Made by a program: the position numbers and the translations under genes. A DNA stretch of 64,000 nt from a virus. Positions 3,165-59,402 of this stretch are shown piece after piece. The DNA lies in the IMG/VR virus record IMGVR_UViG_3300045049_000234, positions 32,001-96,000 of that record, one strand, 5' to 3'. How positions within the stretch are numbered: the first letter of the stretch is position 1; the number at the start of each line of letters is the position of its first letter. Under the pieces are notes generated by a model that saw only the letters and a list, made by a program, of their open reading frames with translations, was not told where the DNA came from and did no database searches.

Positions 3165-3905
3165 ATGGCCGGTCCCTCGTGGCTGGCGGCAACCGCCGGG
3201 CAGCCCGCCTATGCCGGGCAGCTCAATCAGTTCCTGGCGAGCCATGGGGCTACATGGCTGTACGCGGGTACCCAACAGGCCGCGCAAACCACCGGTAACG
3301 CCGTCTATTCTGCGAGCAACGGGCAGTACATCGCGCAGTCGTTCACCACCGGCGTGTCGCAGACCGCTGTCGGCCAGGTGTGGCTCCAGGTCAGCGCGGT
3401 CGGCGGCTCCCCCGTTACGCAGGCCATACCGCCGCTCACCCTGGCGCTGTACGCAAGCTCCGGGGGCGCCCCCACCGGTGCAGCGCTGGGCAGCGTCGCC
3501 GTGAACGAGACATACGTGTACAACGCCCCCTTCTGGGTGCAGTTCCCGCTCGCGGTGAGCGGGCTGACGCCGAGCACGGTCTATCAACTGGTTACCTTCC
3601 CCGCCGGTGCATCCGCGAACTACTACGCTTGGCAGCACTCGAACCAGGTCATCGGCGGTTCCCTGAGCGCGGACGGCGTCACCTGGACGACACAGGCATT
3701 CGGCTTCATGTACCAGGTCTTCGATCAGAGCGCGGGCGGCAACCTGCTGTACATCACCGAGGACGGCGGTGCGCGCTGGACCAGCCTCACCTATGACGCG
3801 TTCAACCGGGTGAGCACCATCACGGAGTACACCACTGGCGCGACCGCACTGACTTCGGTGCGCACCTTCGCCTACAGCAACGGCAGCTTAACGGGGGTGA
3901 GTTGA
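3165..3905 (+). CDS. Minor tail protein, paralog 1
   Basis: RBS AGGAGG; similar to 5493-6218 and to the ends of 6228-8564. Confidence 0.7.
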   Translation: MAGPSWLAATAGQPAYAGQLNQFLASHGATWLYAGTQQAAQTTGNAVYSASNGQYIAQSFTTGVSQTAVGQVWLQVSAVGGSPVTQAIPPLTLALYASSGGAPTGAALGSVAVNETYVYNAPFWVQFPLAVSGLTPSTVYQLVTFPAGASANYYAWQHSNQVIGGSLSADGVTWTTQAFGFMYQVFDQSAGGNLLYITEDGGARWTSLTYDAFNRVSTITEYTTGATALTSVRTFAYSNGSLTGVS

Positions 3906-14891: not shown

Positions 14892-15073
14892 GGGCCAAGG
14901 AACACGAGCTGCGACGGCGGGTAGAACCGGTGGTCGTTCGGGAAGTCATCCCACGATACGCGGAATGATCCGTCGCGTTCCTCAACGACAGTGCCCGGCG
15001 ACGGGCAGTCCACAAGGGCCACCCTGTCGCCGGGCACGAACGCCGGGCCGGACCTACGCCGCCGGGCTGTCAT
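14888..15073 (-). CDS. Small SH3-like hypothetical protein
   Basis: FVPGDRVAL...GTVVE...FRVSWD pattern; overlaps the Ro60 stop. Confidence 0.45.
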   Translation of the reverse strand: MTARRRRSGPAFVPGDRVALVDCPSPGTVVEERDGSFRVSWDDFPNDHRFYPPSQLVFLGP

Positions 15074-16772
15074 CCTGCTCCCACGGCCAGCGGTCGCCGC
15101 GACCAGCCGCCGCCCACGCGAACATCTTGAACACCGCGTCCGAGAAACCGCCGACCTCGAACCGGTTCGGCTGCTTGGTGTCGATCGACGCCTTGGAGTA
15201 GCCCGTGGTGTCGATCCCGAACAGCGGCACCGACGCCGGGACCGCGTCGGACACCGACGTGGCGCGCGGCGCGACCAGCCCGGACCGGCGCACGCCGTAC
15301 CCGCCGCTGTAGTACCCGCCGTACGCGAACGCCTGGCCGTCGGTGACCACGATTACCCGGTCGTGGCCCTTGAACGTGGCCTCGATGGCGCCGATGGTCT
15401 GCGTGCCGTGGCCCACCTCGCCGATGCGCTTGGTGAACCGGTCGATCTCGCGCAGCATGCTGCCGCCCAGCGCGATGTCGTGCTGGAACACGCCGTCCGC
15501 GTAGCCGTACAGGCTCACTTTGCCGCCGGTGCGGTACGCCAGCGCCACGCCGATCAGCGCGCCGATGTCCACGTGCCGGATCTGCGACTTGCCAGACACC
15601 GGGGACTGCATGGAGCTGGAGGTGTCCACCAGCACCAGCGTGCGCCCGTCCAGGAGCGGGATGTTCGCCGTGGCCGCTGCCAGCGCCTGCTCCAGCGCGT
15701 GACCCCACCGCAGCGACGGTGCGGCCTTGTACGCCGACAGGAACCGGTACGGGAACTGCCGAGAGCGCGCCACTTCCGCCGGGTCGGCGATCTTCGCCGC
15801 CACCTGCGCCGCGACCTTGTCAGAGACCTTCGCCTCGTCGAAGTTGCGCAGGTTGCGGATCAGCGCCATGTAGCCCATCGACGGGATGATCGCCTCCCAC
15901 GCGGCGCGGTCCATCGGACCCTGAAGCCAACCGGCCAGGATCTCCCACGTGATGCCCGCGTCGTTCAGACGCTGCGCCCCGCCGTCGGCCAGCAGGACCG
16001 CACGGCGCTCCGCCACCGGCAGCGCCATCAGATCGCGGTTCGCGCGCAGGATGCGCAGCGACTCGGGAACGTCCAGCTCCGGCTCGTGCGGCTTGGACAC
16101 CACGTAGTCGAACAGGTCGTGCTGCCACGGCGCCTTGATGGTCTGCGCGGAGTCGTCGCGGTCGCCCGAGTGCGTCAGGTCCAGCACGCGGCGCCACGAG
16201 AAGCCGGGGTGCGCCACGTCGCCGTACTTGATGAAATTGCGCTCGTTGCCCATGCGGATCATGGCGTCGGCGATACCGCGCTTGAGCGGCTTGGGCAACG
16301 CCATCCCGTAGCGCGACGTCCAGTACGCCAAAAGCTCGCCGGGCTCGTCCGGGCGCTGGAGCGCGTCGCGCACGACGCTGCGCGCGGAGATGGTCGGCAG
16401 CGGGTACTGCGTGCCGGTGCGGCCGGTGCCCATCTCGTCGCGGCGCGCGTGGACGTACTCCGCCGCCGCGACGACCGACGCCGAGCGCATCAGGCCCTCG
16501 CTGCGAAGCCACTTGATGAACCGCGCGGTCCAGTCGGGGTGCTGGACGGCGCACTGACGCACCAGGTTGCGGAACCGGACGTCGCGGTCGCCCGCCTTCT
16601 CGTAGAACGTGTCCTCGCCGACCATGTTCGTCACGGCCAGCAGGAACAGATCGGACTGCGGGGTGCGGGTCCACGCGGCGCCGCCCTCGTGGGTGGTGGT
16701 GCGCTCGTCGGTGGTCCGGATGACGCCCGGCGCAGTGGTCTGCTTGCCGAGCTGCTTGGTGAACTTCGCCAC
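15054..16772 (-). CDS. rsr: Ro60 / TROVE-domain RNA-binding protein (Rsr-like) with C-terminal vWA
   Basis: THEGG, DTFYE, MRS, KY, TWE, MGYMALIRNLRN, SRQFPYRFLSAY TROVE motifs; vWA MIDAS LVDTSSSM and VIVVTDGQ. Confidence 0.93.
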   Translation of the reverse strand: MAKFTKQLGKQTTAPGVIRTTDERTTTHEGGAAWTRTPQSDLFLLAVTNMVGEDTFYEKAGDRDVRFRNLVRQCAVQHPDWTARFIKWLRSEGLMRSASVVAAAEYVHARRDEMGTGRTGTQYPLPTISARSVVRDALQRPDEPGELLAYWTSRYGMALPKPLKRGIADAMIRMGNERNFIKYGDVAHPGFSWRRVLDLTHSGDRDDSAQTIKAPWQHDLFDYVVSKPHEPELDVPESLRILRANRDLMALPVAERRAVLLADGGAQRLNDAGITWEILAGWLQGPMDRAAWEAIIPSMGYMALIRNLRNFDEAKVSDKVAAQVAAKIADPAEVARSRQFPYRFLSAYKAAPSLRWGHALEQALAAATANIPLLDGRTLVLVDTSSSMQSPVSGKSQIRHVDIGALIGVALAYRTGGKVSLYGYADGVFQHDIALGGSMLREIDRFTKRIGEVGHGTQTIGAIEATFKGHDRVIVVTDGQAFAYGGYYSGGYGVRRSGLVAPRATSVSDAVPASVPLFGIDTTGYSKASIDTKQPNRFEVGGFSDAVFKMFAWAAAGRGDRWPWEQDDSPAA

Positions 16773-16821
16773 GGTCGGGTTCCTCTCTACGTGCGTGTGC
16801 TGTGCGGGAGGAACCGGCAGG

Positions 16822-16961
16822 GGTGACCCGAGATTGAAGCGACGGCGGCTGTTTTGACTGATGCTCTACCAAGTGAGCTACCGAGGGTAAAGCCCCCCGG
16901 ATTGGGATCGAACCAATAACCTTCAGTTCCGAAGTATCCGCCATCAGGGCACCGGGTCACC
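16822..16961 (-). ncRNA. Y-RNA-like unit (YrlA-type permuted tRNA: T arm, closed acceptor, D arm)
   Basis: Terminal 9-bp stem; AUUGG-UUCGAUC-CCAAU; CCGGGGG/CCCUCGG; GCUC-ACUUGGUA-GAGC. Confidence 0.85.
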
Positions 16962-16970
16962 GGTGCTGGA

Positions 16971-17099
16971 CCTCCCGAGGTTGGGGTGTGCGGGACTAAG
17001 TTGCCTTAGACCATCTCGGCCACACGCGGCGGACCGCGTGACAGGATTCGAACCTGCGTTCGTTTGCACGAAGTAAGTTCCGCACGGGGCACCGGGAGA
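16971..17099 (-). ncRNA. Y-RNA-like unit (GCAA hairpin, T arm, closed acceptor, D arm)
   Basis: Scaffold CCGGUGCC..UACUUC..CAACCUCGG; GCAGG-UUCGAAU-CCUGU; CACGCGG/CCGCGUG. Confidence 0.82.
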
Positions 17100-17133
17100 T
17101 GCCTTTACTGTCAGTGTTCAGTTGTCAATGGGG

Positions 17134-17279
17134 TCGCGCCCGAGGTTGAGTCGGTGATCGTTGTTCTCTGTTGTGCTGCCGTTACACCACACGCCCCAGG
17201 TGGGGGGCGCGCCGGATTCGAACCGGACCTCCGGTTCCCTAGACCGGTGAAGTAACGATCTCCTTGGCACCGGGCGCGA
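17134..17279 (-). ncRNA. Y-RNA-like unit (anticodon arm AGG, T arm, closed acceptor, D arm)
   Basis: CCGGU-CUAGGGA-ACCGG; CCGG-UUCGAAU-CCGG; CGCGCCCC/GGGGCGUG. Confidence 0.82.
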
Positions 17280-17288
17280 TGTCTGTGG

Positions 17289-17435
17289 GCCGTGTCCGAG
17301 ATTGAGGTCGGACGATCGTGACGTTAGGTGCTCTGGGCCACTGAGCCACAGGGGACACAGTCCCCCGCCGGGATTCGAACCCGGGTCACCCGCTTAAGAG
17401 GCGAAGTAACGATCATCCTGGGCACCGGACACGGC
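17289..17435 (-). ncRNA. Y-RNA-like unit (anticodon arm CUU, T arm, closed acceptor, D arm)
   Basis: UUCGC-CUCUUAA-GCGGG; CCGGG-UUCGAAU-CCCGG; GCUC-AGUGGCCCA-GAGC. Confidence 0.82.
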
Positions 17436-17445
17436 ATCCGTTTAG

Positions 17446-17592
17446 TCCACCCCGAGGTTGAATCAGAGACCGGTATTCTTAAAGAAGGACTCGAACCTTC
17501 ACCTCCGGCTTTTCAAAGCCAGCGTGCTGCCAATTACACCACTCGGCCATGAGTGGCCGAGGAAGTATCGGTATCAATGGCACCGGGATGGA
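17446..17592 (-). ncRNA. Y-RNA-like unit (closed acceptor, D arm, anticodon arm, T arm)
   Basis: CUCGGCCA/UGGCCGAG; GUG-UAAUUGGCAG-CAC; CUGGC-UUUGAAAA-GCCGG; GAAGG-UUCGAGU-CCUUC. Confidence 0.82.
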
Positions 17593-17600
17593 TGCCTGGC

Positions 17601-17712
17601 CCCTCCCGAGATTGAGGTGGCCGACGGAGAACGGGACTTGAACCCGCAGCGTTTCCTTGGAAGGGAAATTTCGAACCATTCGAAGTAACCGTAGACCTGG
17701 GCACCGGGAGGG
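17601..17712 (-). ncRNA. Y-RNA-like unit (D arm, anticodon arm UCC, T arm in canonical order)
   Basis: UUUCC-CUUCCAA-GGAAA; GCGGG-UUCAAGU-CCCGU. Confidence 0.82.
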
Positions 17713-17721
17713 AATTCTATG

Positions 17722-17800
17722 GTGTCCCCGAGATTGAAAGCGGCGGCCGGTGTGTTTCCATTTGGAGTGAAGTAACCGATTGCCTGGGCACCGGGGACAC
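17722..17800 (-). ncRNA. Minimal Y-RNA-like unit with Trp-type anticodon loop
   Basis: Scaffold plus UUCA-CUCCAAA-UGGA. Confidence 0.75.
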
Positions 17801-17806
17801 GTACGC

Positions 17807-17929
17807 GGCATTCCCGAGGTTCACGGTGGATCGACGACGGGGGTTCTCCGTCCCCACGCTCCGCGTGAGGGTTCCCCCTATGGTGCACTGGTGGAGGAAG
17901 TATCGCCGGTCCGAGGCACCGGGAATGCC
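17807..17929 (-). ncRNA. Y-RNA-like unit with non-tRNA insert
   Basis: 10-bp terminal stem and same scaffold motifs; no T-loop. Confidence 0.7.
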
Positions 17930-17953
17930 CACTGTTCAGTTATCAAGAAGCGC

Positions 17954-18033
17954 GTCCCCGAGATTAAGGGCGACGTCCGGAACGGGATTCAAATTTACAG
18001 TTTGAAGTAGCCGGTCGTCTGGGCACCGGGGAC
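17954..18033 (-). ncRNA. Minimal Y-RNA-like unit with Tyr-type anticodon loop
   Basis: Scaffold plus UUCAAA-CUGUAAA-UUUGAA. Confidence 0.78.
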
Positions 18034-18081
18034 AAAGTCGGTGCGTTTCGGCGGGGGTTGGGTTCCCGTTTCAACACGCAT

Positions 18082-18112
18082 AGCGTAGCACATGCGTTAG
18101 ACGGTCACGCAA
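18082..18112 (-). promoter_or_regulatory. Candidate promoter for the Y-RNA array and Ro60
   Basis: Extended -10 TG-C-TACGCT with CTAAC upstream; weak -35. Confidence 0.45.
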
Positions 18113-23023: not shown

Positions 23024-23710
23024 CTAGACTACGGCGTCCACGTTAGCGTTGTCAAGGGGATCGGCCTGCGAAGTCATCCGCATTCGCCTGCCCAGTTCGA
23101 TCCATGCGTGCCGTGGCCACATCGTGCGGCACCCACGGCACTGGATCTTCTGCGCGTACGGGTCCGCCCACAGCGACGTCCCGCACACCATCCCGTCGTC
23201 CGCCGTCTGCGGGCACATCCCGATCATCCGTGACTCGCCGGGACCGTTGACCTGAACGCGGCACGCCGCCGCCCACTCCCGGATGTTCGCCGCGAACGCG
23301 TCCGCCTCGGCGTGCTCATCCGCCGCCCACGTCCAGTTGTTGCGCAGGAACGTCACCGCGCCGACCACCGACTGCTGCACCGTCCCCCGGAACGGTCGCG
23401 CCGTCCATCCGAGCACCATGCGCCAGTCCGATTCCCAGTAGTGCAGGACGCTGACGATGCCGCCGTGCGCCCGCAGGCTCAGCGGCTCCAGCCGAACCGG
23501 CACCGGCGATCCCACGCGCCCCCCGCCGGACACGCGGGCGTCGGTGCGCATCCCCCACGACGGTTCCAGCATCTCCCCCAACGCCTCGTACAGCGCCGGT
23601 ATCGCCGTCAGGTCGGCGTCCACGTGCGCGATGCACAGGCCGCACACGCGGCGGGTGGACGATCGGCGGCAGATCATGCACTGGACGGACACGGGCTGGT
23701 CAGTGAGCAC
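23024..23710 (-). CDS. Zinc-ribbon-containing phage protein
   Basis: CxxC pairs at both ends. Confidence 0.7.
   Translation of the reverse strand: MLTDQPVSVQCMICRRSSTRRVCGLCIAHVDADLTAIPALYEALGEMLEPSWGMRTDARVSGGGRVGSPVPVRLEPLSLRAHGGIVSVLHYWESDWRMVLGWTARPFRGTVQQSVVGAVTFLRNNWTWAADEHAEADAFAANIREWAAACRVQVNGPGESRMIGMCPQTADDGMVCGTSLWADPYAQKIQCRGCRTMWPRHAWIELGRRMRMTSQADPLDNANVDAVV
23026..23055 (-). promoter_or_regulatory. Conserved phage promoter
   Basis: TTGACA-ACGCTAAC..-TAGTCT. Confidence 0.75.
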
Positions 23711-23752
23711 GGCGCCCCCTCATGGTGTTTTTTATGAGGGTAGCGCCGTGCA

Positions 23753-24879
23753 TCCATGCCTTGCGCAACGATGCCGAGGCCAGCGCCGCCATGCCGGGCT
23801 CGGCCGTGCCGTGCCACGTCGTGCGGGCAACCACCGACTAGCCGGTGACCACCCGCACGACACGGAACCATGCGTTGCCAAGCCGCGCGCTGCGCTGCCG
23901 AGCCGTTACCTAGCCGGGCCAAGTACCGCCATGCGAAGCCGGACCATGCCGGGCACTGCGTAGCGCCGCCTCGCGTGCGCGCCGGGGCCTCGAACCCCGG
24001 TGACATCCGGTCGCGCGCCATCCATGCCGTGCCGAGACAGGCCGCGCGTTGCACTGCCTAGCCCGGCCGTCCACCGTCCGTGCCTTGCCGTACCTCGCCA
24101 TGCGCCGCCACGCCGGACTGAGCCCAGTTCTGCCGAGCATGGGAACCTTGCCGCGCCTCGCATTGCCAAGCCGAGCGATGCCCGGTCTGGCCACGCGTCG
24201 CCCCGCCGCGACCCCACGGCGGGGTTGTCCTTGCGTTGCCGAGCCACGCCACGCCTAACCAGGCCACGCCGCGCACAGCCGCGCCCCGACCCCAGAGCGC
24301 GGGTATCCGTGCCTTGCCCCGCGTAGTCATGCGTCACCTTGCCACACGGTGCGGCGCCAAGCCATGCATTGCCCGGCCGGGTCGTGCCGTGCGCAGCTAT
24401 GCCGAGCGCAGCGCAGCCCAGGGACGGCACGCGGTGGTCCCGCGTACCAACCTTGGGTTGCGCCCTCGCCGCTCGGCCATACCCCGCCTAGCATGGCCGA
24501 GCGGCGCCGTGCGGCGTCCATGCCTTGCCTGGCGTTGCCACGCCAGTGCCGCGCTCAGCCGAGCGATGCCGGGGCCAGCCCTGCCATCGCCTCTGCCCAG
24601 CCAAGACAGCGACACACCGGTGATGTGCCACCGCCCCGGCTGGGTCCGTGCCTCGCCGCGCGGAGCCAAACCGGGCCAAACGTTGCCGGGTCGTGCCCCA
24701 CCATGCCGCGACCCCACGACATGACGTCCATGCCTAGCCACGCCAGACCTCGCACAGCATCGCCTAGCGTCGCCAGGTCCTTGCCAAGCCGGGTCGCGCC
24801 GCGCTACGTCCAGCGTTGCCGTGCGCTGCCGCGCCGGGCGTTGCGTTGCCACGCCATCGCATCGCGAAGCCAGGCCACG
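23753..24879 (-). repeat. Non-coding 5-nt periodic array (GGC-NN)n, about 12 units separated by linkers/hairpins; candidate guide-RNA array
   Basis: Minus strand reads e.g. GGC TG CGC TG CGC TC GGC AT AGC TG CGC AC GGC AC...; every unit ends A[ACT]-GG[AT]. Confidence 0.85.
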
Positions 24880-25446
24880 TTACGCCGCCGCATCCTCGTC
24901 CGGTGCGATGCCCATGGCGCGCATCCGGCGTTCGATGTCAGCGAGACGGCGATCCGTCGCCTCGCTGTGGTTGCGCGTCTCCGTGCGCAGGTCGTCCAGC
25001 GTCTTCTGCATCCGGGCCGTCTTGGACGCCTGCCGCCGGTTGATCTCCATCTGATAGGCGAACGCGGTGGCGACGGTTTCGAACGCGGCGCGCACCGCCG
25101 GGCTTTCGCCGGACAGATCGACGTTGACCGCCTTCGAGTAGGCGCGCTGAAGCTGCCGACCCGCCTTGCGGCCGTGGCGCCGCGCCAGCCCGAGCTGTGC
25201 GACGGCGTCCACGACGACATAGCCGACGCCGCGTACGGCGTCCACGGCGCGCTTCTCGTCCTCCTCGAACCGCCGCGCGGCGTCCCGGAACGCGACCCGC
25301 AGCGTCTGCCGGTCGCGCACAGGGTCCAGCTCCAGCGCTTCGGCCATCTCCTCGAACGTGATCAGATCGCCGATGGCCTTGGTCCGCAGGAGGCCGTACA
25401 TCACCTTCCAACGGGCGGTGTCGCCGATGGGGGCGAACGGGCTCAT
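24880..25446 (-). CDS. Winged-helix plus coiled-coil protein, partner of the RAMP-like gene
   Basis: GDLITFEEMAEAL...VRGVGY wHTH-like motif; ATGA overlap with upstream gene. Confidence 0.7.
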   Translation of the reverse strand: MSPFAPIGDTARWKVMYGLLRTKAIGDLITFEEMAEALELDPVRDRQTLRVAFRDAARRFEEDEKRAVDAVRGVGYVVVDAVAQLGLARRHGRKAGRQLQRAYSKAVNVDLSGESPAVRAAFETVATAFAYQMEINRRQASKTARMQKTLDDLRTETRNHSEATDRRLADIERRMRAMGIAPDEDAAA

Positions 25447-26027
25447 GCGTTGTCCGGGATGACGGTGACGCTGCCCGCGAACCGGCCGTACCGGGGGCGC
25501 CAGTTGCCCAGGCCGATCAGGCTCCCGGCGATGTCAACGATCTGTTCGAAGTCGCCGAGGTCGATGATCTGCGTGTCCACGTAGATGATCGCGGAGGTGG
25601 CCCAGTCATGGAAGATCGGCCGCGTGCGGATCACGCGGGCGTTGTTGACCTTCACGGACGCCTGGTGCCGGAACGACTCGTCGGCCCACAACGCCTCCGG
25701 GTCGCGCGGACCCTTGTAGACCAGCGGATTGACGTTGGACAGGACGATGACGCCCGTCTGCACCTTGGGTCCGAGCTTGCGCTTGCGCGCGGCGTCCAGC
25801 AGCGCGCGATAGATGTTGTCGCCCGGCATGTACGGACCCTGCTCCGAGTCGTGGTACAGGCCGCCCAGGAACTCGGCGTGTGCCATTTCCGCGTAGTCGT
25901 CGTCGGTCTTGGACCGCTTGGCGCTGATCTTCTTGATGGACTTCGCGATCGGGTCCAGCGGATTGGACAGCCGCGCGTTGTGTACCAGCAACGGGCACGT
26001 GCCCGTAACATCCAACTTGATATCCAT
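25443..26027 (-). CDS. Stand-alone RAMP/Cas7-like RNA-binding protein (Vipr-like)
   Basis: 194 aa from ATG after GAGAGGAACCC; GTCPLLVHN first strand, PYMPGDNIYRAL, RTRPIF..W, C-terminal Gly loop GLGNWRPRYGRF. Confidence 0.72.
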   Translation of the reverse strand: MDIKLDVTGTCPLLVHNARLSNPLDPIAKSIKKISAKRSKTDDDYAEMAHAEFLGGLYHDSEQGPYMPGDNIYRALLDAARKRKLGPKVQTGVIVLSNVNPLVYKGPRDPEALWADESFRHQASVKVNNARVIRTRPIFHDWATSAIIYVDTQIIDLGDFEQIVDIAGSLIGLGNWRPRYGRFAGSVTVIPDNA

Positions 26028-26045
26028 GGGTTCCTCTCGATGATG

Positions 26046-26153
26046 ACCGTGCCTCGCGTTGCCAAACCATGCCGGGCGGTGCCGCGCCTGGCATCGCCGT
26101 GCCTCGCGTTGCATTGCGCCGCGACGCCAAACGCAACCGTTGCCACGCCACGC
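26046..26153 (-). repeat. Single (GGC-NN)n unit in the 5' leader of the RAMP-like gene
   Basis: GGC GT CGC GG CGC AA TGC AA CGC GA GGC AC GGC GA TGC CA GGC GC GGC AC ... GGC AC GGT. Confidence 0.8.
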
Positions 26154-26166
26154 GCTGATGTTGACC

Positions 26167-26196
26167 ACACTATCACCGGTCATGCCATAAATACAA
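26167..26196 (-). promoter_or_regulatory. Candidate promoter of the RAMP/array operon
   Basis: TTGTAT-N18-TAGTGT with extended TG. Confidence 0.5.
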
Positions 26197-26276: not shown

Positions 26277-27131
26277 TTACTCTGCGTCGGTGTCGGGTTC
26301 CTCGACGTCTTCGACCACATCGCCGTCCACGATGTCGGCGGCGTCCGTCACTTCGGTGGCGTCGGTGCGCGGGTTGACGTCCAACCGCACGCCGCCGTCC
26401 ACGGCCAGTCCGCGCACGTACTGCGTGGACCGGGGCGCCGTCTTGAGTACATCGATAAGCGTTGTTTTCAACGCCATGGCATCAAAGTGATCACGCCACG
26501 GGCCGACGATCTCGCCATTCTTGCGGGCCATCGCGAACTTGTCGCGGTGTTCCTCGCAGTCCTCGCGTGTCCACGCGGAGAACAGCGGCCGGGGACCGCC
26601 CACCAGATGAACCACCGAGTAGTAATCGGTCACCGGTCCGCGAGCGGCGCGGGGCGCCCGCGACGGGATGTGCTCGATACGGCTGTCCGTTCCGTACCTA
26701 ACGTCGAAGAAATCACTTTCGTAACGCTTGTGCGCCTCGATCGACACCACGCGGTCCGACCGGTACGCCAGGTTGATCAATCCCGGATAGCCGATGATCA
26801 AGGTGGCTTCCATGCGCCCCTTGTTGCGCATCGGCAGCAGCCACGCCTCGCCCAGCACCGCCGGGCGCAGACCGAGCTGTGCGCACGTCATCAGGCCGCC
26901 CAGCACGGACATCGGGTCGCACTCCGCCAGGCGCGGCGTCTTGCGCAGGACCGTCATGGCGTCGCGGGCAAGCTGGACGGCGTCGTGGCCGCGCGGCATG
27001 GCCCGCTCGAAATCCGGGATCATCTTCCTGATCTCGTCGGCCAGGGACCGCCGCCCCTCGTCCGGCGTGCGCGGGGTGTTCGGCGCCAGTTCGCCGCGCT
27101 GCGTGCGCATCCGGTTCGCCAGGTCGTTCAT
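26277..27131 (-). CDS. recT: RecT single-strand annealing protein
   Basis: CDPMSVLGGLMTCAQLGLRP...GEAWLLP...IIGYPGLINLAYRS...MALKT. Confidence 0.9.
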   Translation of the reverse strand: MNDLANRMRTQRGELAPNTPRTPDEGRRSLADEIRKMIPDFERAMPRGHDAVQLARDAMTVLRKTPRLAECDPMSVLGGLMTCAQLGLRPAVLGEAWLLPMRNKGRMEATLIIGYPGLINLAYRSDRVVSIEAHKRYESDFFDVRYGTDSRIEHIPSRAPRAARGPVTDYYSVVHLVGGPRPLFSAWTREDCEEHRDKFAMARKNGEIVGPWRDHFDAMALKTTLIDVLKTAPRSTQYVRGLAVDGGVRLDVNPRTDATEVTDAADIVDGDVVEDVEEPDTDAE

Positions 27132-27517
27132 GCGGACTCCTCCTCATCCGGCCAGACGATGTGCGCCTGGACCTTGATCGCCTTGCCGTCGCGGATGACC
27201 ACCCGCCAGATGTCTTCGTTGTCCTCGCCGAAGCAGTTGAACCGACCGGTGAACGTGTGATCGGGGAACGCGTCGATGGCGTCCTGTACGGCGCCGGTCA
27301 GGTCGATCTCCCGGTACTCGTCCTGATAGGTGACCTCCAGCCGCGTCGCGTAGCGGCGGGTCAGGATTCCCTGATCCGTTTCGGTGTCCTCTTCGCGGAC
27401 CGCCAGGCTGACCTCCGAGTCCCCGTTGACGAACTCAGAGTCTTTCATTTCGCCCCATTCGATCGGCGGATCGATCTCGATCGAGTCGGGCGGCCATACG
27501 CGGGTGTGATAGCCCAT
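27128..27517 (-). CDS. Hypothetical protein
   Basis: GAGGAACCC-ATG, acidic 129 aa. Confidence 0.65.
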   Translation of the reverse strand: MGYHTRVWPPDSIEIDPPIEWGEMKDSEFVNGDSEVSLAVREEDTETDQGILTRRYATRLEVTYQDEYREIDLTGAVQDAIDAFPDHTFTGRFNCFGEDNEDIWRVVIRDGKAIKVQAHIVWPDEEESA

Positions 27518-27524
27518 GGGTTCC

Positions 27525-28529
27525 TCACGTCATGGTTGGGTTGAACCGGCGTGACCGGTAGGCGGTGTAGATGTCGGGGTGTTCCTTGGCGAACCGGTCC
27601 TTGTCGAACTCCACGACGGTGCGCGTGTAGGCGTCGTACAGGCCCGGCTTGTCCTCGCGCAGAGCGTTGACGTTCATCGGGCCGGTGTTGCGCCATGTGA
27701 CCACCGGTTTGTCGTCCACGAGCCCCGCATGCGCGGAGCCGAGCGCGGCGCACACGCGCGCCTGCGCGGCGTCCTGCGCCGCCTTCAGCGCTTTGATCTG
27801 TTCGCCCAGCGACCGGTATTCGGCCAGGTCGTACAGCGCGTCGCGGTCCAACACCACGGCCTCGTCAAGGTCCGCCATCGGATGCAGGCGCTTGATCAGC
27901 TCCGGGTCGGCGGCGTGCATCCCGAACTCCGGCGGCACCTGCGGCAGGACGTGCTGATGCCAGAACTCGTCCTCGATCGCGGTCAGGTCGCTGATCAGCG
28001 ACTCGTCGCGGTCCACCCGCCGCACCACCAGTTCCACGCCGACCAGCGCGGCAATCCACACGTGGGTGCGGCCGGTGACCTTCAGCCCGTGCTGGCCCTG
28101 TACCGCCGCGCGGTCCGTCACCGCGCCGTCGGCCCACTCCGAGGCCATGCGGAAGCTCGTGGTCTTCATCTCCAGCAGCCCGCCGTCCTCGGTCAGGCCG
28201 TCGGGCGTGTAGAGCTGCCAGGGGTTCTCACGCGACTGGAGCAGCCCGCACGTGGTCACGCGTACGCCGGTCACTTCGGTGAACCACTCGCGGATCATCG
28301 GCTCGGCGCGGTGGCCGAACGCCATCGCCGGAGTGTAAGGCATCTCCGGAAGCCGCGACGTCTTGTCCAGGTAGACCTTGAGGCGGGATGAGAACGGGTC
28401 CAGACCGGCCACACCGGGCGCGTCCGATCCGCCGATCCCCTGCTGCCGTGCGCGCAGCCACATGTCCCGTGGGGCGCCGTGGGGCAGCAGCTCCTCACAC
28501 TCGTCCGTGGAGTTCACACCGGGGGTCAT
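27525..28529 (-). CDS. YqaJ-like exonuclease (RecE partner)
   Basis: WLRARQQGIGGSD, GHRAEP, YTPDG, LLEMKT, QGQHGL. Confidence 0.9.
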   Translation of the reverse strand: MTPGVNSTDECEELLPHGAPRDMWLRARQQGIGGSDAPGVAGLDPFSSRLKVYLDKTSRLPEMPYTPAMAFGHRAEPMIREWFTEVTGVRVTTCGLLQSRENPWQLYTPDGLTEDGGLLEMKTTSFRMASEWADGAVTDRAAVQGQHGLKVTGRTHVWIAALVGVELVVRRVDRDESLISDLTAIEDEFWHQHVLPQVPPEFGMHAADPELIKRLHPMADLDEAVVLDRDALYDLAEYRSLGEQIKALKAAQDAAQARVCAALGSAHAGLVDDKPVVTWRNTGPMNVNALREDKPGLYDAYTRTVVEFDKDRFAKEHPDIYTAYRSRRFNPTMT

Positions 28530-59069: not shown

Positions 59070-59365
59070 ACGCGCACGAGCGGCTGTACGTGATCGCGGG
59101 AACGTACCGGGAGTACTTGGACTGGTGCGCCGATCTGCCGATCGGCCGCAACGATCCGCGCGTGCGGTGCGTGCTCGATTCCTGGGCGTTGCAAGGCGCG
59201 CCGCGCGGTCTGTGGTACATCAAGATCGGAACATGGGAACGCTGGTCCAGCCGGGCGCACATCGATGAGATGCTGTACTGCTGCGAAGCCCGCGACGCGG
59301 ACGCGGCCATGGGTCGGATGGGCTCGGAGCGGAGATCGGCTGTAAACCGGTTGCCATCGGCATAG
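59066..59365 (+). CDS. Hypothetical protein
   Basis: GTGA coupling; 3' end runs into the tRNA-like element. Confidence 0.5.
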   Translation: MNAHERLYVIAGTYREYLDWCADLPIGRNDPRVRCVLDSWALQGAPRGLWYIKIGTWERWSSRAHIDEMLYCCEARDADAAMGRMGSERRSAVNRLPSA

Positions 59366-59389
59366 CAGGTTCGACACCTGCCCGACCCA
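59311..59389 (+). tRNA. tRNA-Tyr(GUA)-like gene with degenerate D arm
   Basis: Acceptor GGGTCGG/CCGACCC plus A73; ATCGG-CTGTAAA-CCGGT; variable arm TGCC-ATC-GGCA; GCAGG-TTCGACA-CCTGC; no encoded CCA. Confidence 0.65.
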
Positions 59390-59402
59390 CGCGGAGGAAC
59401 CA

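What the first reader, a model, noticed from the sequence alone, without database searches (positions are those of the whole stretch)
23753..26196. Candidate non-CRISPR RNA-guided system: solo RAMP/Cas7-like protein with (GGC-NN)n pentamer arrays
Seen: one minus-strand operon runs promoter (26167-26196), a pentamer unit (26046-26153), a 194-aa gene (25443-26027), a coupled wHTH gene (24880-25446), then a 1.1-kb non-coding array. The array alternates a near-constant triplet (mostly GGC, also CGC/TGC/AGC/GGT/GAC) with a freely variable dinucleotide, roughly 170 pentamers by hand count. Known: the protein has RAMP/Cas7-type hallmarks (first strand ..GTCPLLVHN, the PY.PG..I..AL helix, C-terminal Gly loop GLGNWRPRYGRF), and Cas7 proteins polymerise on guide RNA with a fixed nucleotide step. 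There is no cas1/2/3/5/6 or CRISPR repeat in the window. Inference: one protomer binds each 5-nt repeat, holding the constant triplet and displaying NN, so the NN series spells a discontinuous guide. This could repress or block competing phages or host genes. From memory this matches a recently reported phage system called VIPR (GGY/NN guide RNAs, every third target base skipped). I cannot verify that here, so novelty must be checked against the literature.
Basis: partly seen in the sequence, partly recalled or inferred. Interest (0 to 1): 0.95.

Follow-up and report, generated by a model that had tools for sequence, protein, structure and literature searches.

The report
Phage VIPR RNA-guided silencing locus
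This is a real but already described kind of system: a phage-encoded VIPR locus (a lone Cas7-like protein, a DNA-binding partner and about 15 guide RNAs made of NN-GGC pentamers), here in an uncultured 111-kb actinobacteriophage with an unusually large and oddly punctuated guide array.

Summary
Period-5 repetition occurs only at 23754-24886 and 26047-26157 in the whole 111-kb phage genome, as 186 NN-[G/C]GY units on the minus strand around two coupled genes.

The interpretation also holds, and the system is already published. The 194-aa protein matches the solved SUSP1 Vipr protein (PDB 36pp, E 1e-36). It folds as a Csm3/Cas7-like RAMP and keeps five RNA/DNA-contact residues. The 188-aa gene is a vap1 homologue. 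There is no Cas1 and no CRISPR array. Of 80 IMG/VR relatives, 79 carry pentamer arrays beside vipr. I file it as a type II-like VIPR (bioRxiv 10.64898/2026.04.26.720920), a new member of a known kind.

Four features are particular to this locus:
- It has the largest array of the 81 loci compared.
- The first repeat base is relaxed (G in 66% of units).
- It has a unique D-to-N change at the residue that reads that base.
- Its separators are heterogeneous: three long hairpins and one tRNA-like acceptor/T-arm minihelix.

That minihelix is the recurrent guide tail in about 31 related actinophage loci. None of the four VIPR papers held mentions it.

No natural target was found, and expression could not be tested. 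The scan had noted this stretch before, in overlapping windows.

The parts
26158..26196 (-). Putative promoter region. It holds a -10-like TAGTGT 9 nt before the first repeat.
   Evidence: It is not a sigma-70 consensus hit. The same TAnnGT plus 8-9 nt arrangement precedes the arrays of the closest relatives L009 and L010. This part is inferred.
26047..26157 (-). Upstream vrRNA tract of 22 pentamers. It is probably two guides, each ending AACGC-GAGGC-ACGG, and it runs straight into the vipr ribosome-binding site without a tail.
25443..26027 (-). vipr: a 194-aa solo RAMP (Cas7/Csm3-like).
   Evidence: PDB 36pp_D SUSP1 Vipr at E 1.1e-36. phrog_4652 at E 1.4e-57. AF2 pLDDT 95.5 with Foldseek top hits Csm3/Cas7. 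H16, K32, R136, W176 and R177 are conserved, and N175 replaces SUSP1 D177.
24880..25446 (-). vap1-like accessory gene, 188 aa, translationally coupled to vipr by an ATGA overlap. It is a probable winged-helix DNA binder.
   Evidence: phrog_5926 at E 2e-6, the family of the Felixounavirus gene after vipr (7e-76). BLASTP 3e-6 to HY02 and 2e-15 to LittleE gp33. Weak OmpR-wing hits.
23754..24886 (-). Downstream vrRNA array of about 164 pentamers in about 13 guide units. Most units end ..AAGGC-AYGGA.
   Evidence: There is no coding signal.
24596..24644 (-). Separator: a 23-bp hairpin.
   Evidence: Fold energy -42.1 kcal/mol, z -5.1.
24425..24449 (-). Separator: a 10-bp hairpin with a GACCA loop. 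A similar element occurs in relative L010.
   Evidence: z -2.3. L010 comparison.
23969..24023 (-). tRNA-like tail. It has a 5-6 bp outer stem, an 11-nt linker, a 6-bp T stem and a GGTTCGAGGCC T-loop, then ACG.
   Evidence: CM R1 scores 52.7 bits, E 7.7e-10, and this is the only match in the window. Weak Rfam mascRNA hit. Covariation among 76 homologous tails.
23818..23861 (-). Separator: a 19-bp hairpin.
   Evidence: Fold energy -32.7 kcal/mol, z -5.2.
23707..23751 (-). Terminal hairpin closing the array. Its 3' arm covers the RBS and GTG start of the next gene (23024-23710).
   Evidence: Fold energy -33 kcal/mol, z -6.9. Sequence.

Best explanation
This is a type II-like VIPR (Viral Interference Programmable Repeat) locus of an uncultured 111-kb, high-GC actinobacteriophage. 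The minus strand is transcribed from just upstream of 26157. The transcript covers one or two leader guides, vipr, vap1 and a 1.1-kb array of about 13 further guides. Vipr protomers polymerise on each guide, one per pentamer. They sequester the [G/C]GY triplet and present the NN dinucleotides. Those dinucleotides pair with double-stranded DNA while every third target base is skipped, and the bound filament blocks transcription with help from the Vap1 DNA-binding protein. The most likely targets are competing phages, prophages or satellites in the same host. Guides are delimited by the conserved terminal repeat AYGGA, and then by a tRNA-like minihelix, a long hairpin or nothing. What is shown here: homology, fold, conserved contact residues, repeat grammar, gene order, phage context, conservation of arrays in relatives and absence of self-targets. 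What is taken from the papers on SUSP1 and P. fulva: filament formation, the one-nucleotide-skip code and repression. What is inferred: transcription, processing and the identity of the targets.
For: - Protein homology: Vipr matches PDB 36pp at E 1.1e-36 and phrog_4652.
- Fold: AF2 pLDDT 95.5, and 79 Foldseek hits at E<=1e-3, all top ones Csm3/Cas7.
- Contact residues: H16, K32, R136, W176 and R177 align with SUSP1 H17, K33, R138, W178 and R179.
- Accessory gene: vap1 homology.
- Repeats: 186 NN-[G/C]GY units lie only around these genes in the whole genome.
- Relatives: 79 of 80 IMG/VR relatives have arrays next to vipr.
- Context: a phage record with terminal repeats, 100% complete, and no Cas1.
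- Self-targets: none in the phage's own genome under any skip rule, as the paper reports for other VIPRs.
- NN composition: NN is about 50% GC in a 67.5% GC genome. It fits codon positions 1-2 far better than positions 2-3, 3-1 or intergenic DNA, by 63 and 29 bits over 151 NN. That fits a skipped wobble base, but it is no better than a uniform model.
Against: - Targets: no natural target was found with exact 9-10-unit seeds from eight guides in viral, metagenome and genome collections.
- Expression: no expression data could be obtained.
- G1-reading residue: the SUSP1 residue that reads G1, D177 (its alanine mutant loses function), is N175 here. This is unique among 80 relatives.
- Repeat strictness: the first repeat base is G in only 66% of units.
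- Tails: only one of about 13 guides carries the clade's usual tail, so part of the array could be non-functional.
Confidence: 0.88

Rival explanations
1. It is a VIPR locus, but partly decayed or relaxed. The N175 protein binds repeats poorly, or only a few guides (those with canonical GGC runs and a proper tail) are active. The rest of the 1.1-kb array would be drifting remnants.
For: The D-to-N change at the G1-reading residue is unique. This locus has the lowest G1 share of 81 loci, 0.66 against a mean of 0.90. Only one R1-type tail is present. No targets were found.
Against: - Positions 2 and 3 of the triplet stay at 93% and 98%.
- CGC is itself part of the recurrent 3' motif (TTGGC-AACGC-NAGGC-AYGGA), so it is conserved rather than random decay.
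- Relatives with D also use CGC, TGC and GTC units.
- The protein is otherwise intact, its other contact residues are conserved, and the fold is confidently predicted.
- Both genes keep strong GC3 coding bias.
Confidence: 0.12
2. It is a functional VIPR that regulates the host or the phage's own programme, rather than attacking competing mobile elements.
For: No mobile-element target was found in IMG/VR. The locus sits in the early recombination module after the RecE-like and RecT genes. The final hairpin covers the start of the next gene.
Against: There is no self-match above shuffled controls in the 111-kb genome. Published natural targets of type II systems are satellites and prophages. The host genome is unknown, so host targeting could not be tested.
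Confidence: 0.1
3. The period-5 signal is not RNA guides at all. It would be a protein-coding low-complexity repeat or a DNA structural repeat.
For: None beyond the repetitiveness itself.
Against: No ORF with coding bias is present. A period of 5 is incompatible with a reading frame. The same grammar flanks vipr in 79 of 80 relatives, always on the vipr strand. SUSP1 repeats are shown to be RNA bound by Vipr.
Confidence: 0.01

Closest known systems
SUSP1 / Felixounavirus type II VIPR (vipr-vap1 plus vrRNAs; bioRxiv 10.64898/2026.04.26.720920, .720927 and 2026.10.15.759431; PDB 36pp, 36pk)
   Same: The Vipr proteins are homologous (37% identity, E 1e-36). vap1 is homologous. The gene order is the same, with guides both upstream and downstream. 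The NN-GGY grammar is shared, and the terminal repeat ATGGA marks the start of the tail in both. Both are phage-borne and lack cas genes.
   Different: - Guide number: about 15 guides in 186 units, against 4 guides of 10-12 units.
- Repeat strictness: the first repeat base is relaxed (G 66%, C 23%).
- G-loop: N instead of D177.
- Tail: there is no SUSP1-type pseudoknot tail, and CM R1 finds nothing in HY02 or LESphi2. Separators here are a tRNA-like minihelix, 19-23-bp hairpins or direct abutment.
- Upstream guide: it has no tail.
- Host: a high-GC actinobacterial phage.
Actinobacteriophage Vipr homologues (Gordonia phages MakoManhole gp78 and Trine gp41, Mycobacterium phage LittleE gp34, prophiBWHA-1 gp43; IMG/VR loci L009-L088)
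   Same: Identity is 46-66%. They have vap1-like neighbours and pentamer arrays ending AAGGC-ATGGA. About 31 of the 81 other sources searched with R1 (78 of the 80 IMG/VR loci, the four isolate-phage loci L002-L005, and the negative HY02 and LESphi2 controls) carry tRNA-like minihelix tails.
   Different: These genes are annotated only as hypothetical proteins in GenBank. Most relatives have a tail after every guide (L058 has 8 in a row), whereas the window has one. The window's array is the longest seen within the +/-3 kb compared.
Class 1 CRISPR backbone proteins (Cas7/Csm3)
   Same: They share the RRM/RAMP fold with a G-loop and thumb (Foldseek E 1e-5, TM about 0.5). One protomer binds per fixed RNA step, with periodic base flipping.
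   Different: This locus has no CRISPR repeats or spacers and no Cas1/2/5/6/10. The step is 5 nt with 2 nt read, against 6 nt with 5 nt read. There is no adaptation module. It is not a CRISPR-Cas system.
tRNA-like processing or punctuation elements (MALAT1 mascRNA, tmRNA tRNA-like domain, engineered tRNA-guide arrays)
   Same: An acceptor-like stem is stacked on a T arm with the invariant GGTTCGAnnCC loop. A conserved GG lies in the linker where a D-loop would pair. A, as a discriminator-like base, follows the stem. The only sub-threshold Rfam hits on that strand are mascRNA and tmRNA.
   Different: There is no D arm and no anticodon arm. ARAGORN does not call it. It scores below every Rfam threshold. 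Cleavage by RNase P or RNase Z is untested.

Membership tests
VIPR (type II) | Vipr protein: a solo RAMP homologous to the characterised Vipr | tested here: met
   phmmer to PDB 36pp_D 'SUSP1 Vipr protein' at E 1.1e-36 over residues 4-186. phrog_4652 at E 1.4e-57, shared with the Felixounavirus protein. AF2 plus Foldseek give a Csm3/Cas7 fold.
VIPR (type II) | RNA/DNA-contact residues of SUSP1 Vipr (H17, K33, R138, D177, W178, R179) | tested here: inconclusive
   H16, K32, R136, W176 and R177 are conserved. D177 is N175, unique among 80 relatives. Five of six are met. The effect of D-to-N is unknown.
VIPR (type II) | Tandem YNNGG (GGY/NN) repeats, at least 4 units, flanking vipr on its strand | tested here: met
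   186 units were parsed. Position 2 is G in 93% and position 3 is Y in 98%. Position 1 is G in only 66% (C in 23%), a degenerate variant of the kind the papers already list.
VIPR (type II) | vap1 accessory gene (predicted DNA binder) directly after vipr | tested here: met
   phrog_5926 at E 2e-6. BLASTP 3e-6 to the HY02 gene and 2e-15 to LittleE gp33. ATGA coupling to vipr.
VIPR (type II) | One vrRNA upstream and an array downstream of the genes | tested here: met
   Tracts lie at 26047-26157 and 23754-24886.
VIPR (type II) | Each vrRNA is 9-16 repeats followed by a conserved structured 3' tail | tested here: inconclusive
   Most units have 9-16 repeats and end in the conserved AYGGA. Only one carries the clade's tail. 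Four are followed by other hairpins, and several abut directly.
VIPR (type II) | Placement in the published Vipr phylogeny that defines types I-VII | not tested
   The authors' tree and type table were not available. Type II is inferred from direct homology to SUSP1 Vipr and vap1.
VIPR (type II) | vrRNAs are expressed and bound by Vipr | not testable with these tools
VIPR (type II) | Guides match natural targets by the one-nucleotide-skip rule, and there is no self-target | tested here: inconclusive
   There is no self-target. No convincing external target was found with exact seeds from eight guides. A tolerant search could not be run.
CRISPR-Cas (class 1) | CRISPR repeat-spacer array and cas1/cas2 or other cas genes | tested here: not met
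   No Cas1 in the 111-kb genome while the control genomes were positive. No CRISPR-like tandem repeat. PADLOC gave no hit.
tRNA gene (for element 23969-24023) | Full cloverleaf with D and anticodon arms | tested here: not met
   ARAGORN does not call it. Rfam tRNA does not match, and there is only a sub-threshold mascRNA hit. A 10-11-nt linker replaces both arms.

The most novel reading that the evidence does not exclude
In the actinobacteriophage branch of type II VIPR, the guide tail is a tRNA elbow mimic (acceptor-like stem, GG linker, T arm). It would recruit the host's tRNA-processing enzymes (RNase P, RNase Z) to cut multi-guide transcripts, making it a natural counterpart of engineered tRNA-guide arrays. 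The window's array would then be a mixed or transitional form, cut at one tRNA-like site and at RNase III-type 19-23-bp hairpins. Several guides would stay joined as multi-guide RNAs read by a Vipr variant (N175) that tolerates C, T or A at the first repeat base.
Probability: 0.3. Interest if true: 0.6.

Novelty: new member of a known kind. Interest (0 to 1): 0.38.

Why it matters
The finding re-discovers, from raw sequence alone, a system published in 2026. That is a useful check of the scan, but it is not a new class. Its value lies in the details. It extends experimentally uncharacterised type II VIPR diversity into large actinobacteriophages. These include isolates such as LittleE, Trine and MakoManhole, whose homologous genes are still annotated as hypothetical. 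It offers a natural variant of the G1-reading residue, paired with a relaxed repeat, for testing how Vipr reads the triplet. It also points to how guides may be matured or capped in this branch, through tRNA-like minihelices and long hairpins. The four papers held do not address that question. A 15-guide natural array is also a template for multiplexed VIPR tools in high-GC hosts such as mycobacteria.

Tried and rejected
1. A single-sequence AlphaFold model was useless (pLDDT 38.6). It was replaced by a model built on a 45-sequence alignment.
2. Target searches used exact one-nucleotide-skip seeds of 9-10 units from eight guides.
   - Seven seeds went to viral contigs, two to metagenome contigs and two to genome contigs.
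   - The yield was either nothing or chance hits in low-GC contigs (L008, L089, L115-L121).
   - The best case matched 11 of 12 units of the last guide in L099 and L107.
   - It was rejected because the skipped base falls on codon position 1 and the gene is a T9SS-sorted protein (Por_Secre_tail domain, typical of Bacteroidota) in a 56-60% GC contig. About 0.1 such extensions are expected among 25 seed hits.
3. Guides were scanned against 86 related VIPR loci to look for anti-VIPR guides. Results were no better than shuffles.
4. Guides were scanned against the phage's own genome with skips of 0-3. Results equalled shuffles.
5. Host identification failed. Megablast and two protein searches found only distant actinophage relatives, and relatives cannot be drawn for a virus record.
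7. Rfam at gathering thresholds finds nothing in the locus, and there is no hammerhead ribozyme.
8. The link between N175 and the relaxed G1 is only suggestive, because D-bearing relatives go down to 0.71 G1 and also use CGC units.
9. The short 17-18-nt separators ending TGGGGTC do not fold better than shuffles.
10. No complex-prediction job was sent, because the filament is already solved for a homologue.
Full report
**Observation.**
On the minus strand, 23753-24879 shows identity of 0.42-0.47 at lags 5, 10, 15 and 20, against about 0.26 at other lags. The 26028-26166 stretch shows the same pattern. Across the complete 111,179-bp genome, only these two stretches stand out, at 4-6 SD.

A five-phase HMM parse gives 186 units of the form NN-triplet: 22 upstream (26157-26047) and about 164 downstream (24886-23754). 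The triplets are GGC 97, CGC 36, TGC 12, GGT 12, GAC 7 and a few others. Position 1 is G in 66%, position 2 is G in 93%, and position 3 is a pyrimidine in 98%. All sixteen NN dinucleotides occur. No frame with the genome's strong GC3 bias crosses the array.

**What it is.**
VIPR is real literature, held as bioRxiv 10.64898/2026.04.26.720920.720927, 2026.10.15.759431 and a fourth paper that recovers VIPR arrays.

*The Vipr protein.*
- The 194-aa protein matches the solved 'SUSP1 Vipr protein' (PDB 36pp) at E 1.1e-36 over nearly its full length.
- It matches phrog_4652 at 1.4e-57, the family of the Felixounavirus protein.
- With a 45-sequence alignment, AlphaFold gives pLDDT 95.5.
- Foldseek returns 79 PDB hits at E<=1e-3, and all the top ones are Csm3/Cas7. 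That Foldseek library predates the Vipr entries.
- Residues the cryo-EM paper names as RNA or DNA contacts are conserved. SUSP1 H17, K33, R138, W178 and R179 correspond to H16, K32, R136, W176 and R177 here.

*The partner gene and context.*
- The 188-aa gene belongs to phrog_5926. That is the family of the gene following vipr in Felixounaviruses (vap1), Pseudomonas phages and mycobacteriophage LittleE.
- Its VRGVGY segment gives weak hits to OmpR-type winged helices.
- The record is a complete phage genome with terminal repeats. It has no Cas1, no CRISPR-like array and no PADLOC hit.
- The locus follows a RecE-like exonuclease and RecT.

*Relatives.*
- There are 130 phage records and 304 IMG/VR contigs that encode relatives.
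- Of the 80 best IMG/VR loci, 79 carry pentamer arrays beside vipr.

**Anatomy of the array.**
Guide units end in a recurrent in-phase motif..TTGGC-AACGC-NAGGC-AYGGA. The last repeat, ATGGA, is also where the tail starts in the E. coli phage HY02 and in actinophage relatives. By this mark there are about 13 downstream guides of roughly 9-21 units, and one or two upstream guides.

Between guides there are three situations:
- **Direct abutment with a one-base phase slip (..GGA-C..).**
- **Strong hairpins.** These are 24596-24644 (23 bp, z -5.1), 23818-23861 (19 bp, z -5.2), 24425-24449 (z -2.3) and a terminal hairpin at 23707-23751 (z -6.9). The terminal hairpin covers the start of the next gene.
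- **One tRNA-like element at 23969-24023.**

**The tRNA-like tail.**
In relatives the same element follows guide after guide, for example eight times in L058. A covariance model built from 34 copies finds 76 matches in 82 sources. All lie on the vipr strand. They occur in about 31 loci, exactly once in the window (52.7 bits), and not at all in the E. coli or Pseudomonas loci.

- The T stem is paired in 99% of cells, with compensatory changes in 5 of 6 pairs. The loop GGTTCGAnnCC is invariant.
- An outer stem of at least 5 bp continues directly from the T stem in 87% of copies, against 8% of shuffled controls.
- The linker is 10-11 nt with a near-invariant G, part of a recurrent GG.
- ACG usually follows the outer stem.
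- Sub-threshold Rfam hits on that strand are to mascRNA and tmRNA.
- None of the four VIPR papers held contains 'tRNA', 'RNase P' or 'RNase Z'. No paper in the library combines 'vrRNA' with 'tRNA-like'.

**Features particular to this member.**
- Its array is the longest of the 81 loci compared within +/-3 kb. The next longest have 163 and 108 units.
- Its first repeat base is the least strict, 0.66 G against a mean of 0.90.
- Its G-loop has N where 74 of 79 relatives, and SUSP1, have the D that reads G1.
- The link between those last two features is only suggestive, because D-bearing relatives also use CGC units. CGC is part of the conserved 3' motif, so it is not simple decay.

**Mechanism.**
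By homology to the solved system, one Vipr protomer binds per pentamer and adjacent protomers hold the triplet. NN pairs with the target while one target base in three is skipped, and the filament represses transcription. Both Vipr and Vap1 are needed in vivo in SUSP1. These steps are taken from the papers and are not shown here.

Two local observations are consistent with that mechanism. There is no self-match above shuffled guides for any skip length. The NN composition is about 50% GC in a 67.5% GC genome, and among genome-derived models it fits codon positions 1-2 best. That fits a skipped wobble base, but a uniform model fits equally well.

A TAnnGT hexamer lies 8-9 nt before the first repeat in the window and in its two closest relatives. 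This suggests the transcription start, although the simple sigma-70 scan found nothing on this strand.

**Targets.**
Exact seeds from eight guides gave only chance hits. Guides do not match related VIPR loci. The host is unknown. A mismatch-tolerant search of the kind the authors used could not be run here, so this result is inconclusive and is not evidence of absence.

**Verdict.**
This is a new member of a known kind, the type II-like VIPR. The open and possibly new point is the tRNA-like guide tail of the actinophage branch, together with the mixed punctuation of this array.

Noticed in passing
L002-L005, L010-L081 (for example L058:3688-4557); window 23969-24023: In about 31 related actinophage VIPR loci, each guide is followed by a tRNA-like acceptor/T-arm minihelix with an invariant GGTTCGAnnCC loop and covarying stems. 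The four VIPR papers held do not mention it.
   Followed up: yes
L079:2750-3000 and 3560-3900: A Vipr relative with G-loop GLSEWRP is flanked by 163 pentamers, of which 146 are GGA/NN. The third base is a purine instead of the canonical pyrimidine.
   Followed up: partly
window 15054-18112: A Ro60-like gene with TROVE and vWA domains lies at 15054-16772(-). It is preceded by structured RNA units, one of which scores as tRNA in Rfam (17482-17543). Earlier notes of the scan describe a Y-RNA-like array here.
   Followed up: partly
window 23700-23752: The 17-bp hairpin that closes the array contains the GAGGGGG ribosome-binding site and the GTG start of the next gene (23024-23710, phrog_1467, function unknown). 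Array processing and translation of that gene may therefore be linked.
   Followed up: no
window 26277-28529: A RecT gene (26277-27131) and a YqaJ/RecE-like exonuclease gene (27525-28529) lie directly upstream on the same strand. VIPR therefore sits at the end of the recombination module.
   Followed up: partly
L010:2540-2590 and 2816-2866: The second-closest IMG/VR relative (61% identity) uses a T-loop variant, GGTCCGAnTCC, in its tails. It mixes these with GC-rich hairpin tails carrying a GACCA loop, like the window's 24425-24449.
   Followed up: no
window 59311-59390: The phage carries a tRNA-Tyr(GTA) gene.
   Followed up: no
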